Assembly: GCA_946536225.1 (NCBI GenBank) | Contig: CAMNEE010000002.1 | Location: 239,523 to 303,522, forward strand | Direction of reading: 5' to 3' | Length of the DNA: 64,000 nt | DNA from: an uncultured Bacillales bacterium | Lineage (GTDB): Bacteria; Bacillota_I; Bacilli_A; RF39; UBA660 | In this document: positions 28,043 through 30,449 of the stretch, piece after piece | Layout: the number at the start of each line of letters is the position of its first letter | Numbering within the stretch: the first letter of the stretch is position 1 | Notes under the pieces: model-generated | Database searches by the model: none | Seen by the model: only the letters and a program-made list of their open reading frames with translations | What the model was told of the DNA's origin: nothing | Translations under genes and position numbers: made by a program

Positions 28043-28072
28043 TTGACTAATATAAGTATAATCAATTATAAT
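28043..28072 (+). promoter_or_regulatory. Sigma-A promoter of the tyrS-operon T-box leader
   Basis: TTGACT (28043-28048), 18-nt spacer, TATAAT (28067-28072). Confidence 0.6.
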
Positions 28073-28074
28073 AA

Positions 28075-28235
28075 ATTCAAGTTGACGAAGAAAGGATTTA
28101 CGCCCCTGGAGTCAAATCGTTAATTCGCGTTAAGAATTTAAAGAGTATGATTAACAATCATAAATTAAGGTGGTACCGCGGGGTAATGCTCGTCCTTTAG
28201 CTTTAATTTATGGTTGTTTTTTATTTAGTGAGGGT
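28075..28235 (+). promoter_or_regulatory. T-box riboswitch leader (presumed Tyr; UAC present in the stem I region)
   Basis: T-box sequence aaattaaGGTGGTACCGCGG at 28163-28182. I could not identify a canonical terminator hairpin downstream. Confidence 0.65.
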
Positions 28236-28237
28236 TT

Positions 28238-28873
28238 ATGGAAAGAATTATATTTGACTTAGACAATACTTTGATAAGTAATGTTAACTTTTCTAAGTAT
28301 GTTGCCGAGGCATTTGATTTAATTAATGTACCATTTACTGAAGAAACATTAAGGTCTATTCAAAGAGCTATACATGACTATGAACTAGAGTCTTCTAAAT
28401 ATGATAAAGTGCGTATGATGGAATACTTTAGAAGATATACTGCTTTAGATTTAAGTATGTCATTTCTTGATAGTTTTATGTCTAGATTAGAGTATGCATT
28501 ACCTGATAAAGAGGACGCAGGCGTAAGAGAAACTCTTGATTATCTAGCAGGTAAGTATAAGTTATGTGTATTAACTAATTGGTTTAGAGTATCTCAATAT
28601 AAAAGACTAGTTAATGCTGGAATAGATAAATATTTTACTGAGGTATATGGTGGAGAAGAATACAAGAAACCAGATAAGAATGCTTATTTAATGGCTTGTG
28701 GTAACTCTAAAGCAAGTGATACACTTATGGTAGGAGATTCGTTTGAATTTGATTACCTAGGTGCCAAAAATGCTGGATTAAATGCAATACTATTAGATAA
28801 GAGTAATAGATTTAGTTCCTTAAATCCAAATGAAAGAATAAATGATATTAAAATGTTAAAGAAAGTTTTATAA
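28238..28873 (+). CDS. HAD-superfamily hydrolase (subfamily IA-like)
   Basis: Motif I FDLDNTL, a lysine near EEYKKPD and motif IV-like GDSFEFD. Confidence 0.75.
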   Translation: MERIIFDLDNTLISNVNFSKYVAEAFDLINVPFTEETLRSIQRAIHDYELESSKYDKVRMMEYFRRYTALDLSMSFLDSFMSRLEYALPDKEDAGVRETLDYLAGKYKLCVLTNWFRVSQYKRLVNAGIDKYFTEVYGGEEYKKPDKNAYLMACGNSKASDTLMVGDSFEFDYLGAKNAGLNAILLDKSNRFSSLNPNERINDIKMLKKVL

Positions 28874-28885
28874 GAGGTGAAGAAC

Positions 28886-30070
28886 ATGAAATGTTATGAC
28901 GATTTAGTATATCGTGGTCTTATTAAAGACAGAACAAATAATGAAGATTTTATTGAAAAATTAAATGCTGGAGGAATGACTTTCTACATTGGAACAGATC
29001 CAACTGCAGATTCATTACATATAGGACATTACTCTTCATTTATTACTGCTAAAAGATTGGCCAAATATGGTCATCATCCAATTGTATTAATAGGTGGAGC
29101 AACTGGATTAATTGGAGACCCAAGACCAACTGGTGAAAGAGAAATAATTGATAAATCAGTTGTAGAAGCAAACATTGAAGCATTAAAGAAACAAATAACA
29201 AAATTATTTGATGGAAATGTTGAAATAGTAAATAACTATGATTGGATTAAAGATTTTACATTCATTGATTTCCTAAGAGATGTAGGTAAATATATCAATG
29301 TTAACTATATGCTTAATAAAGATATTATTAATAGAAGATTAGAAACTGGTATTACATTTGCAGAATTTAGTTATACTTTATTACAAGGATATGACTTTGT
29401 TCATTTATATAAAGAAAAGAACTGTGTAATGCAAGCTGCTGGTTCAGATCAATGGGGAAATATTACAACTGGTGTTGAATTAATTAATAAAATGTTAGGT
29501 AAAGAGGCATATGCATTTACTATGCCAATTATAGCTGACTCTACAGGAAAGAAATTTGGTAAATCAGAAGGAAATGCTATTTGGTTAGACAAAGATAAAA
29601 CTCCTGCATATGATATTTATCAATATATGATTAATTCTACAGACGACATGGTTGAATACTACTTAAAAGTATTTACTTTCCTTACTAAAGAAGAAATAGA
29701 TGAAATCATGGCAAAACATAGAGAAAAACCAGAAGATAGATATGCTCAAAAGAAATTAGCATATGAGTATGTAAAAGACTTACATGGTGAAGAAGAAGCT
29801 CGTGCTGCTAAAGCCAAGTCAGAGGCTTTATTTGGAGGTTCTACTGAAGACTTAGAAGCAACTCCAATAAAGCCAGAATCTAATAATATATTAGATATCA
29901 TGATGGCAGCTGATTTAATACCTTCTAAATCAGAAGGAAGAAGATTAGTTGAACAAGGTGGAGTATCTGTTGATGGAGAAAAAATAACTGATTCTAAAGC
30001 AGAAATAAATAAAAAATCCTTTGTTATTCAAAAAGGTAAAAAGAAAATAGTAAAAGTGGAAATGATGTAA
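28886..30070 (+). CDS. tyrS: Tyrosyl-tRNA synthetase
   Basis: HIGH motif SLHIGHY, KFGKS motif and a C-terminal S4-like domain. An RBS agagg precedes the ATG at 28886. Confidence 0.9.
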   Translation: MKCYDDLVYRGLIKDRTNNEDFIEKLNAGGMTFYIGTDPTADSLHIGHYSSFITAKRLAKYGHHPIVLIGGATGLIGDPRPTGEREIIDKSVVEANIEALKKQITKLFDGNVEIVNNYDWIKDFTFIDFLRDVGKYINVNYMLNKDIINRRLETGITFAEFSYTLLQGYDFVHLYKEKNCVMQAAGSDQWGNITTGVELINKMLGKEAYAFTMPIIADSTGKKFGKSEGNAIWLDKDKTPAYDIYQYMINSTDDMVEYYLKVFTFLTKEEIDEIMAKHREKPEDRYAQKKLAYEYVKDLHGEEEARAAKAKSEALFGGSTEDLEATPIKPESNNILDIMMAADLIPSKSEGRRLVEQGGVSVDGEKITDSKAEINKKSFVIQKGKKKIVKVEMM

Positions 30071-30071
30071 T

Positions 30072-30449
30072 ATGTTAAACGAAGATAATAAGATAAGATG
30101 TTTAGTTGTAGATGATAGTCTACTAAGTGTAAAAATTGCAACAAATGCCGTATCATCAATCAGTAATCATATTGATTCTTGTATATCTGGTAAAGATGCC
30201 ATCCAAATGGTTAAAATGCATCACTATGATGTTATTCTAATGGATATAATGATGCCAGAAATGGATGGTGTAGAAACATTCAGAAGATTAAAAGAAATAG
30301 AAGGTTTTAATACACCAATAGTAGCAGTAACATCAGATAATGAAAAAGGTGCTAAAGAAAAATATTTAGAAATAGGTTTTAATGCTTATTTAGATAAACC
30401 TTATAGAGATGATATATTAATAGATATTATTCTAAAAATATTAGCATAA
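30072..30449 (+). CDS. Single-domain response regulator (CheY-like receiver)
   Basis: LVVDD, LMDIMMP with the phospho-acceptor Asp, AVTS and LDKP. Begins 1 nt after the tyrS stop. Confidence 0.8.
   Translation: MLNEDNKIRCLVVDDSLLSVKIATNAVSSISNHIDSCISGKDAIQMVKMHHYDVILMDIMMPEMDGVETFRRLKEIEGFNTPIVAVTSDNEKGAKEKYLEIGFNAYLDKPYRDDILIDIILKILA

What the first reader, a model, noticed from the sequence alone, without database searches (positions are those of the whole stretch)
28043..30449. Tyr T-box controls a HAD hydrolase and a receiver domain along with tyrS
The operon reads promoter, T-box, HAD-IA hydrolase, tyrS, then a stand-alone CheY-like receiver starting 1 nt after the tyrS stop. Placing a HAD phosphatase between a T-box and its aminoacyl-tRNA synthetase is unusual. 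In addition, I cannot find the canonical terminator hairpin involving the ACCGCG half of the T-box, unlike the leuS T-box, which shares the ctcgtccttt segment but retains its 3' partner. This raises the possibility of a deleted or non-canonical expression platform, for example translational or antiterminator-only control.
Basis: seen in the sequence. Interest (0 to 1): 0.5.

Follow-up and report, generated by a model that had tools for sequence, protein, structure and literature searches.

The report
Miniature tyrosine T-box, unusual terminator
The tyrosyl-tRNA synthetase operon of this rumen bacterium is preceded by a very small tRNA-sensing RNA switch that lacks two parts thought to be needed, and whose stop signal forms in an apparently undescribed way; the extra genes in the operon look like passengers.

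Summary
The operon is promoter, Tyr T-box leader, HAD-IA hydrolase, tyrS, stand-alone receiver, terminator. The canonical terminator (a 3' partner for CUCGUCCUUU) is absent.

The expression platform is not deleted, translational or antiterminator-only. A 19-bp helix pairs 28153-28171 with 28200-28218 and is followed by a U-run. Its 5' arm is the loop and 3' strand of Stem III, the AA linker and the 5' strand of helix A1. The terminator therefore competes with Stem III, not with the 3' half of the antiterminator.

This "enclosing" design occurs in 43 of 65 tyrS T-boxes from related uncultured gut and rumen Bacilli, with strong covariation.

It has a K-turn and an ultrashort Stem I with UAC in the apical loop. 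It has no elbow-binding platform and no Stem II. It keeps the IIA/B pseudoknot, Stem III and the T-box bulge. Nineteen such leaders covary, and all score below the Rfam threshold.

HAD-tyrS linkage is absent in the nearest relatives but recurs further out, often with deoC or dUTPase. The receiver is unique to this lineage.

Verdict: a new variant of a known riboswitch kind, supported by comparison only.

The parts
28043..28072 (+). Sigma-70-type promoter, TTGACT-18 nt-TATAAT. The transcription start is inferred at about 28079.
   Evidence: 11 of 12 matches. In 18 of 19 ultrashort leaders a 10-12/12 promoter ends 24-26 nt before the UAC specifier, so no RNA element can lie upstream of Stem I.
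28082..28115 (+). Ultrashort Stem I. Base helix UUGAC (28082-86) pairs with GUCAA (28111-15). K-turn-like motif: bulge GAA 28087-89, G28090.A28110 and A28091.G28109. Short GG/CC helix 28094-95 with 28103-04. Apical loop AUUUACG 28096-28102 carries the Tyr specifier UAC at 28099-28101, followed by purine G28102. There is no distal platform (IDTM).
   Evidence: Alignment A1: UUAC and the K-turn GA are invariant. The base helix is 100% paired, and 2 of its 5 pairs change on both sides.
28118..28137 (+). Stem IIA (CGU 28118-20 with GCG 28127-29) and IIB pseudoknot (AUUC 28123-26 with GAAU 28134-37), including the F-box-like CGCGUUAAG. Only 2 nt separate it from Stem I, so there is no Stem II.
   Evidence: IIA is 96.5% paired. 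IIB is 90.8% paired, with changes on both sides at 4 of 4 pairs. alignment.
28141..28164 (+). Discriminator 5' part. Purine string AAGAG (RRRxG) 28141-45. Stem III is UAUGAUU 28146-52, loop AAC 28153-55, AAUCAUA 28156-62. Conserved AA at 28163-64.
   Evidence: Stem III strands pair better with cognate than non-cognate partners (-2.56 vs -1.43 kcal/mol, p 1.7e-7). The motif is as defined in PMC7583486.
28167..28197 (+). Antiterminator. A1 is AAGG 28167-70 with CCUU 28194-97. T-box bulge UGGUACC 28171-77 (UGGU would pair with the 3' ACCA of a tRNA carrying A73). A2 is GCGGG 28178-82 with CUCGU 28189-93, with a G.U pair at its base.
   Evidence: alignment. A1 and A2 are each 98.9% paired, with compensatory changes. 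The conformer energy with Stem III is -9.8 kcal/mol.
28153..28226 (+). Non-canonical 'enclosing' intrinsic terminator. The 5' arm 28153-28171 comprises the Stem III loop and 3' strand, AA, the linker, the A1 5' strand and U28171. The 3' arm is GCUUUAAUUUAUGGUUGUU 28200-28218. A2 sits on top. The U-tract is 28219-28226 (UUUUAUUU). A 6-7 nt insertion unique to this genome (about 28199-28205) supplies a second A1-3'-like strand.
   Evidence: MFE -26.9 kcal/mol. 43 of 65 relatives share the design. Cognate arms give -9.3 vs -3.8 kcal/mol for non-cognate arms, p 1e-19. 80% of cells are paired vs 37-57% in slid registers, and 121 cells change on both sides vs 45 in shuffles, 0 of 500. RNAalifold recovers the helix independently. 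The U-tract has 6-9 T in the 9 nt after the stem in all 43.
28238..28873 (+). HAD-IA phosphatase, 211 aa, of the YjjG/YfnB/NANP-like subgroup. All four catalytic motifs are intact. SD GAGGG at 28230-34.
   Evidence: (TIGR02254 78.5 bits, below its 159.9 cut-off).
28886..30070 (+). tyrS, tyrosine--tRNA ligase, 394 aa. SD GAGGTG lies 7 nt upstream.
30072..30449 (+). Stand-alone receiver (CheY-like) domain, 125 aa, with a complete D-D-D-T-K set.
   Evidence: Absent from all 80 related tyrS loci. 44% identical to the REC domain of the hybrid kinase at 60665-62695.
30452..30479 (.). Bidirectional intrinsic terminator that closes the operon, shared with the convergent EIIB-like gene.

Best explanation
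The leader (about 28079-28226) is a functional, tyrosine-specific, transcription-attenuating T-box riboswitch of a miniature architecture.

Decoding (inferred). tRNA-Tyr (anticodon GUA) is read by UAC, presented in the apical loop of an ultrashort, K-turn-based Stem I. There is no elbow-binding platform and no Stem II. The IIA/B pseudoknot is retained.

Sensing (inferred from solved discriminator structures). The uncharged 3' end pairs with UGGU in the T-box bulge. [quoted passage not shown] AA).

Switching (anatomy shown by comparison, action inferred). The OFF state does not unwind the antiterminator. A 3' arm (28200-28218) pairs with the Stem III loop and 3' strand, the AA linker and the A1 5' strand. 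This extends the hairpin down to the U-tract and makes an intrinsic terminator. Stem III and the lower terminator stem share one strand, so they are mutually exclusive. Uncharged tRNA holding Stem III and its purine latch in place would block invasion by the 3' arm and allow read-through into HAD, tyrS and the receiver. Charged tRNA cannot latch, Stem III is displaced and transcription stops.

Passenger genes (inferred). HAD is probably a (deoxy)nucleotide phosphatase, and the receiver is unique to this lineage. Both most likely ride on the tyrS promoter and T-box rather than acting in tyrosine metabolism.
For: T-box identity and specificity:
- RF00230 E 1.2e-14.
- UUAC, UGGUACC and the K-turn GA are invariant in 19 ultrashort leaders, each followed by tyrS or HAD-tyrS.
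- Helices are 96.6% paired. 70 cells change on both sides vs 21.6 in shuffles, 0 of 500. Slid registers give 35-48%.

No upstream or missing elements:
- Near-consensus promoters end 24-26 nt before UAC in 18 of 19 leaders.
- Only 2 nt lie between Stem I and IIA.
- Stem II is also deleted in the long-Stem-I relative L008.

Terminator:
- -26.9 kcal/mol against -9.8 for the antiterminator conformer.
- The same topology occurs in 43 of 65 relatives.
- Cognate versus non-cognate arm test, p 1e-19.
- Covariation on the A1-anchored alignment and an independent RNAalifold prediction.
- A U-tract is always adjacent, and the SD is always outside the helix.
- Stem III also covaries.

Role of Stem III and its purines in binding the tRNA 3' end: PMC7583486.

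Passenger genes:
- No + strand promoter-like site lies between 28073 and 29300.
- Gaps are 12 nt (HAD to tyrS) and 1 nt (tyrS to receiver).
- Relatives carry HAD, DeoC or dUTPase in the same slot.
- L034 has HAD-deoC upstream of a T-box that sits directly before tyrS.
Against: - No experiment. tRNA binding, termination and read-through are all inferred.
- Published work says truncated Stem I domains barely bind tRNA without Stem II, and that transcriptional T-boxes need the elbow platform for fast capture (PMC7583486). It is therefore unexplained how this RNA would recruit tRNA-Tyr in time.
- In most relatives A1, the bulge and A2 survive inside the terminator hairpin, so tRNA might also bind the OFF form.
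- The lower stem is A-U rich.
- Whole-leader thermodynamic folds of truncated transcripts were uninformative.
- The nearest relatives lack HAD and the receiver. This says nothing about whether regulating those genes matters.
Confidence: 0.72

Rival explanations
1. Translational, or mixed, control. The T-box governs ribosome access to the HAD Shine-Dalgarno sequence, as in actinobacterial short-Stem-I T-boxes, and the U-run is only AT-rich spacer.
For: Short Stem I with an apical specifier is otherwise known from mostly translational T-boxes (PMC10482949, PMC7583486). In the full-length MFE a weak G.U-rich outer helix touches GGGUUU next to the SD.
Against: The SD (28230-34) lies 12 nt beyond the helix. 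In 43 relatives the SD starts 8-44 nt (in most, 9-18 nt) after the start of the U-tract and shows no consistent pairing; it is fully unpaired in 18, with varied partial pairing in the rest. The 3' arm is always followed at once by 6-9 U in 9 nt. The covarying helix ends at the U-tract.
Confidence: 0.08
2. A decayed T-box. After losing the Stem I platform and Stem II it no longer senses tRNA. The hairpin plus U-run is a constitutive, leaky attenuator, or simply a structured 5' UTR.
For: The Rfam score is only 67.4 bits against a threshold of 93. Two tRNA-binding modules regarded as essential are missing (PMC7583486). Genomes of this clade are reduced and AT-rich (27.7% GC).
Against: The specifier UUAC, K-turn GA, IIA/B pseudoknot, RRRxG/AA purines, UGGUACC bulge and A2 base pair are conserved or covary. 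This holds across 19 ultrashort leaders whose TyrS proteins are only 55-85% identical to the window's. A dead element would not keep compensatory changes in six helices. The specifier always matches the downstream tyrS.
Confidence: 0.12
3. HAD, and perhaps the receiver, are functionally tied to tyrosine supply and are deliberately under Tyr-tRNA control. HAD could, for example, be a phosphatase releasing tyrosine or a precursor from a phosphorylated compound.
For: HAD lies between a Tyr T-box and tyrS in the window, L010, L011 and L080, and in T-box-HAD-X-tyrS operons in eight more loci. L011 shares the window's flanking synteny.
Against: The closest families are YjjG/YfnB-type nucleotidases and NANP. 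Co-resident genes are DeoC, dUTPase and CYTH, which are nucleotide housekeeping rather than aromatic amino-acid metabolism. The nearest relatives lack HAD at this site. In L034 HAD-deoC lies outside the T-box-controlled unit. The Leu T-box of this genome also has an unrelated ORF wedged before leuS. The receiver is absent from all 80 relatives.
Confidence: 0.1

Closest known systems
Class I T-box (Bacillus subtilis tyrS leader; Rfam RF00230)
   Same: Tyr specifier UAC. K-turn at the base of Stem I. IIA/B pseudoknot. RRRxG-Stem III-AA. A1, UGGUACC bulge and A2 antiterminator. Transcription attenuation upstream of tyrS.
   Different: No distal Stem I platform, and the specifier is in an apical rather than an internal loop. 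No Stem II. The terminator's 5' arm is Stem III, the linker and the A1 5' strand, not the 3' strands of A1 and A2. About 140 nt from the predicted start to the U-tract here, and about 123-131 nt in relatives (-10 end to U-tract 147 vs 130-138 nt). Scores below the Rfam gathering threshold.
Class III T-boxes (actinobacterial ileS, e.g. Nocardia farcinica and Mycobacterium tuberculosis; PMC10482949)
   Same: Short Stem I without IDTM. Specifier in the apical loop. K-turn and IIA/B pseudoknot retained.
   Different: Class III T-boxes require Stem II and mostly regulate translation through an SD sequestrator. Here Stem II is absent, the loop is 7-8 nt rather than 5-6, the host is a low-GC Bacilli lineage, and the platform is a hairpin plus U-tract.
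Class II T-boxes (glyQS)
   Same: No Stem II; transcriptional.
   Different: As described in PMC10482949 and PMC11404447, typical glyQS T-boxes are glycine-specific, keep the long Stem I with IDTM and lack the IIA/B pseudoknot. This one is Tyr-specific, has no IDTM and keeps IIA/B.
Classical three-strand attenuators (trp-type 2:3 versus 3:4 competition) and many metabolite riboswitch expression platforms
   Same: One strand (here the Stem III 3' strand) chooses between an upstream partner (anti-terminator role) and a downstream partner (terminator).
   Different: Here the upstream helix is part of the ligand-sensing discriminator of a T-box, and the ligand is a tRNA 3' end.
Staphylococcal glyS T-box with stem Sa (PMC9177973)
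   Same: A lineage-specific remodelling of the terminator/antiterminator domain of a T-box.
   Different: Stem Sa is an insertion within a canonical switch. Here the pairing partner of the terminator itself is changed.

Membership tests
T-box leader (RF00230) | Conserved T-box sequence forming a 7-nt UGGNACC bulge between helices A1 and A2 | tested here: met
   UGGUACC 28171-77. A1 and A2 are each 98.9% paired, with compensatory changes.
T-box leader (RF00230) | Specifier codon that matches the amino acid of the regulated gene | tested here: met
   UAC 28099-28101 followed by a purine. UUAC is invariant in 19 leaders that all precede tyrS.
T-box leader (RF00230) | Score at or above the Rfam gathering threshold (93 bits) | tested here: not met
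   67.4 bits here and 42-62 bits in six ultrashort relatives. E-values remain 1e-14 to 5e-6.
T-box leader (RF00230) | Long Stem I with distal AG bulge and apical loop platform (IDTM) that binds the tRNA elbow | tested here: not met
   Stem I is 34 nt. The promoter ends 24-26 nt before UAC, and cmscan deletes 68 model positions.
T-box leader (RF00230) | Stem II with S-turn | tested here: not met
   Two nucleotides separate Stem I from IIA. Stem II is also deleted in the long-Stem-I relative L008.
T-box leader (RF00230) | Stem IIA/B pseudoknot | tested here: met
   IIA 96.5% paired and IIB 90.8% paired, with changes on both sides at all 4 IIB pairs.
T-box leader (RF00230) | Stem III flanked by 5'-RRRxG and AA-3' (discriminator) | tested here: met
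   AAGAG, Stem III, AA at 28141-28164. Cognate versus non-cognate strands, p 1.7e-7.
T-box leader (RF00230) | Terminator built from the 3' strands of A1 and A2 plus a downstream complement | tested here: not met
   No complement of CUCGUCCUUU lies downstream. The Leu T-box at 9527 has one.
T-box leader (RF00230) | Uncharged cognate tRNA promotes read-through | not testable with these tools
   Needs in vitro transcription or reporter assays.
Intrinsic (Rho-independent) terminator | Stable hairpin immediately followed by a U-tract | tested here: met
   19 bp plus A2, -26.9 kcal/mol, then UUUUAUUU. Conserved in 43 relatives with 6-9 U in 9 nt.
Class III (short-Stem-I) T-box | Short Stem I with apical specifier, together with a required Stem II; mostly SD sequestration | tested here: not met
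   The apical specifier is present, but Stem II is absent and the platform is a terminator. Definition from PMC10482949.
Class II (glyQS-type) T-box | Glycine-specific, long Stem I with IDTM, single-stranded linker instead of Stem II and IIA/B | tested here: not met
   Only the absence of Stem II is shared.
HAD superfamily, subfamily IA | Motifs I DxDxT, II T/S, III K, IV (G)DxxxD, and a Pfam or TIGR01549 score above cut-off | tested here: met
   D7/D9/T11, T113, K144 and D167/D172. PF13419 scores 65 bits against 23.8. TIGR01549 scores 58.5 against 23.3.
YjjG-type pyrimidine nucleotidase (TIGR02254) | Equivalog score of at least 159.9 bits | tested here: not met
   78.5 bits. It is the best-scoring family only.
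Tyrosine--tRNA ligase (TIGR00234) | Equivalog score above cut-off, with HIGH and KMSKS signatures | tested here: met
   371 bits against 113.8. HIGH at 45 and KFGKS at 223.
Response-regulator receiver domain (PF00072) | Acidic pocket DD, phospho-acceptor D, conserved T/S and K | tested here: met
   D14, D15, D58, T87 and K109. 84.9 bits against 30.2.

The most novel reading that the evidence does not exclude
These leaders represent a fifth architectural class of T-box riboswitch. It would be an approximately 125-140-nt transcriptional T-box that recognises tRNA-Tyr with neither the Stem I elbow platform nor Stem II. It would switch by terminator invasion of Stem III rather than by unwinding helices A1 and A2. 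The class is widespread in uncultured gut and rumen Bacilli and invisible to Rfam's gathering threshold.
Probability: 0.5. Interest if true: 0.75.

Novelty: new variant of a known kind. Interest (0 to 1): 0.62.

Why it matters
Current reviews hold that transcriptional T-boxes need a long Stem I with the elbow platform for fast tRNA capture. They also hold that truncated Stem I domains bind tRNA only together with Stem II (PMC7583486, PMC10482949).

A conserved, covarying natural T-box with neither module, yet with a terminator, would challenge that rule. It would also define a smaller functional core for structural work and for engineered tRNA sensors.

The Stem III-displacing terminator is a natural test of the 2019 finding that Stem III and its purines belong to the aminoacylation sensor. 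[quoted passage not shown]

Practically, these elements score 42-67 bits with RF00230. Standard annotation of gut and rumen MAGs therefore misses them, and T-box regulons in these lineages are under-counted.

The HAD and receiver cargo matters less. It shows that in these reduced genomes unrelated genes often sit between a T-box and its synthetase gene.

Tried and rejected
1. The Rfam placement of Stem I on 28034-28070 was rejected. That stretch is the promoter, and 18 of 19 relatives have a promoter at a fixed distance from UAC.
2. The promoter/terminator scanner's 5-bp 'terminator' at 28178-28193 is simply helix A2.
3. My first automatic U-tract call for the window stopped at CUUU (+32) and misclassified it as 'mid'. 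I corrected it by hand.
4. MFE folds of progressively truncated transcripts, meant to mimic co-transcriptional folding, gave long-range misfolds with Stem I and were uninformative.
5. SD sequestration showed no consistent pairing.
6. I looked for other T-boxes in the window and in the 80 loci to see whether other amino-acid classes use the design. Only the Leu T-box (canonical) and one Trp T-box in L032 (canonical) turned up.
7. Literature searches for a Stem III-overlapping terminator, for truncated Stem I outside Actinobacteria, and for T-box/HAD/deoC/tyrS operons found nothing relevant. Vitreschak 2008 and Sherwood 2015 are not held, so prior description cannot be excluded. [quoted passage not shown]
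8. I did not use the metagenome scan, the large protein-database searches or structure prediction. The 80 genome loci already answered the questions.
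Full report
**What is there**

The window comes from a low-GC (27.7%) uncultured bacterium. The closest TyrS in one-genome-per-species GTDB is 85% identical, from rumen 'Bacilli bacterium' MAGs. The receiver protein is encoded on at least 23 metagenome contigs, mostly sheep-rumen assemblies. Six that I read have the same gene order and an identical leader, and one (L083) is 100% identical to the window. The arrangement is therefore real.

The operon reads:
- promoter TTGACT-18-TATAAT, 28043-28072
- leader
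- HAD-IA hydrolase, 28238-28873
- tyrS, 28886-30070
- stand-alone receiver, 30072-30449
- terminator, 30452-30479

All three proteins keep their catalytic signatures. No + strand promoter-like site lies between 28073 and 29300. The gaps are 12 nt and 1 nt, so co-transcription is the natural inference.

**The leader is a T-box, but a miniature one**

RF00230 matches at 67.4 bits (E 1.2e-14 locally). This is below the gathering score of 93, so the whole-window scan reports only the Leu T-box at 9527-9699. The model's placement of Stem I on the promoter is spurious.

Read directly and against relatives, the RNA starts at about 28079 and consists of these elements:
- A 5-bp base helix, 28082-86 with 28111-15.
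- A K-turn-like GA motif (G28090.A28110, A28091.G28109).
- Two G-C pairs, then a 7-nt apical loop AUUUACG. It carries UAC (28099-28101) followed by a purine.
- Two nucleotides later, Stem IIA and the IIB pseudoknot (28118-28137).
- The purine string AAGAG, Stem III (28146-62) and AA.
- Helix A1, the UGGUACC bulge (28171-77) and helix A2, with a G.U pair at its base.

There is no distal Stem I platform and no Stem II.

Nineteen leaders of this form were found upstream of tyrS, or of HAD-tyrS, in the window and its relatives (55-85% TyrS identity to the window). The evidence that the form is real:
- In a plain MAFFT alignment UUAC, the K-turn GA and UGGUACC are invariant.
- The six helices are 96.6% paired. 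70 cells change on both sides against 21.6 in shuffles (0 of 500). Slid registers give 35-48%.
- In 18 of 19 leaders a 10-12/12 sigma-70 promoter ends 24-26 nt before UAC. Nothing can therefore lie upstream of this short Stem I.
- Six ultrashort relatives that I scanned score 42-62 bits with Rfam.
- Other relatives keep a long Stem I but also lack Stem II (L008, 106.8 bits, 27 Stem II positions replaced by 4 nt).

**The expression platform**

The Leu T-box of the same window has a canonical one.

The MFE fold nevertheless shows a 19-bp helix between 28153-28171 and 28200-28218. A2 sits on top and UUUUAUUU follows directly. Its energy is -26.9 kcal/mol, against -9.8 for Stem III plus A1 plus A2.

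The 5' arm is the Stem III loop and 3' strand, the AA, the linker and the A1 5' strand. The terminator therefore encloses the antiterminator and competes with Stem III, not with the 3' half of A1 and A2.

Of the 65 T-box leaders analysed upstream of tyrS (the window plus relatives):
- 43 have this topology.
- 6 have a canonical terminator.
- 9 have a long terminator whose 5' arm begins within the T-box sequence or the A2 5' strand. I read these as canonical-like.
- 7 pair the 3' arm with the T-box sequence itself.

Support for the lower stem comes from four independent tests:
- Cognate arms give -9.3 kcal/mol against -3.8 for non-cognate arms, p 1e-19.
- On an ungapped alignment anchored on A1, 80% of cells are paired against 37-57% for slid registers. 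121 cells change on both sides against 45 in shuffles, 0 of 500.
- RNAalifold, run on its own MAFFT alignment, predicts the same helix, with 11-16 sequences showing compensatory changes at four of the five lower-stem pairs.
- Every one of the 43 has 6-9 U in the 9 nt after the stem, and the SD lies beyond it.

Stem III itself also covaries. One strand therefore has two conserved, mutually exclusive partners.

The window carries a unique 6-7 nt insertion (about 28199-28205). It supplies a second A1-3'-like strand and makes the terminator helix continuous.

**How it most likely works**

Shown: the anatomy and its conservation.

- Uncharged tRNA-Tyr holds Stem III and the AA in place.
- The 3' arm then cannot invade, the hairpin stops short of the U-tract, and RNA polymerase reads through.
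- With charged tRNA the latch fails, Stem III is displaced, and the extended hairpin terminates transcription.

What is not explained is how tRNA is captured quickly enough without the elbow platform or Stem II. Both are described as required in their respective classes (PMC7583486, PMC10482949).

**The cargo genes**

The nearest relatives (L001-L009, 67-85% TyrS identity) have the T-box directly before tyrS, with neither HAD nor receiver. HAD nevertheless recurs further out:
- It sits between the T-box and tyrS in L010, L011 and L080. L011 shares the window's flanking genes.
- T-box-HAD-X-tyrS occurs in eight loci (X is DeoC in six; L033/L035 have one 396-aa ORF with an N-terminal HAD domain).
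- Across all loci with intervening genes, DeoC occurs in 15, dUTPase families in 4 and CYTH in 1.
- In L034 the order HAD-deoC-ORF-tyrS is kept, but the T-box sits just before tyrS.

The HAD's best matches are YjjG/YfnB nucleotidases and NANP, all below equivalog cut-offs. With DeoC and dUTPase as neighbours, a (deoxy)nucleotide phosphatase is the best guess. I read these genes as passengers in a conserved neighbourhood, not as tyrosine-pathway genes.

The same genome also has an unannotated 121-aa ORF between its Leu T-box and leuS.

The receiver is absent from all 80 related loci. It is 44% identical to the REC domain of a hybrid histidine kinase at 60665-62695. Its role is unknown.

**Comparison and novelty**

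The element works like a T-box and carries most defining features. It fails four: the Rfam threshold, the Stem I platform, Stem II and the canonical terminator. It does not fit published Classes I-IV (PMC10482949):
- It shares the apical specifier with Class III, but not Stem II or translational control.
- It shares the absence of Stem II with Class II, but not glycine specificity, the long Stem I or the loss of IIA/B.

I found no paper describing a terminator that pairs with Stem III, or a short-Stem-I transcriptional T-box. Two key comparative papers are not held, and TBDB notes uncharacterised 'truncated Stem I' hits. Priority is therefore uncertain.

Verdict: a new variant of a known kind, well supported by comparative evidence and untested experimentally.

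Noticed in passing
window 9527-12511: The Leu T-box (RF00230 96.4 bits, specifier CUU, canonical terminator) is followed by a 121-aa ORF with no Pfam hit (9732-10097), and only then by leuS (10097-12511). This is a second case in the window of a gene wedged between a T-box and its synthetase.
   Followed up: partly
window 60665-62695: A hybrid histidine kinase (HisKA, HATPase_c, REC). Its REC domain (about 62150-62461) is 44% identical to the stand-alone receiver in the tyrS operon, which makes it a possible phosphorelay partner or phosphate sink.
   Followed up: partly
window 30884-31303 (def), 28238-28873 (HAD), 30072-30449 (REC): Compared with the syntenic block of the nearest relatives L005-L007 (YtxH-like, 359-aa ORF, T-box-tyrS, EIIB-like, RDD), the window has three extra genes: HAD, the receiver and a peptide deformylase.
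   Followed up: partly
L009, L038, L043-L046, L075 (T-box region about 60-70 nt upstream of tyrS): A third terminator design. The 3' arm pairs with the T-box sequence GGUGGUACC itself (the 5' half of the antiterminator), not with Stem III or with the A1/A2 3' strands.
   Followed up: no
L034 1726-5230: HAD, DeoC and a 251-aa membrane ORF precede a T-box that sits directly before tyrS. The gene order matches the T-box-HAD-DeoC-tyrS operons, but the riboswitch is in a different place. This suggests relocation of the leader or of the genes.
   Followed up: partly
L008 965-1151 and other long-Stem-I relatives: Tyr-specific T-boxes with a full Stem I platform but no Stem II, with the IIA/B pseudoknot retained. 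Published descriptions treat the absence of Stem II as a glycine-specific trait.
   Followed up: partly
window 28199-28205: A 6-7 nt insertion (AGCUUUA), unique among the aligned leaders, duplicates an A1-3'-like strand. The A1 5' strand can therefore pair with CCUU (antiterminator) or GCUU (terminator).
   Followed up: partly
window 26960-28039: The 359-aa ORF upstream has no Pfam hit and evolves fast (29-49% identity in relatives whose TyrS is 62-85% identical). It is nevertheless syntenic with tyrS in 12 loci.
   Followed up: no
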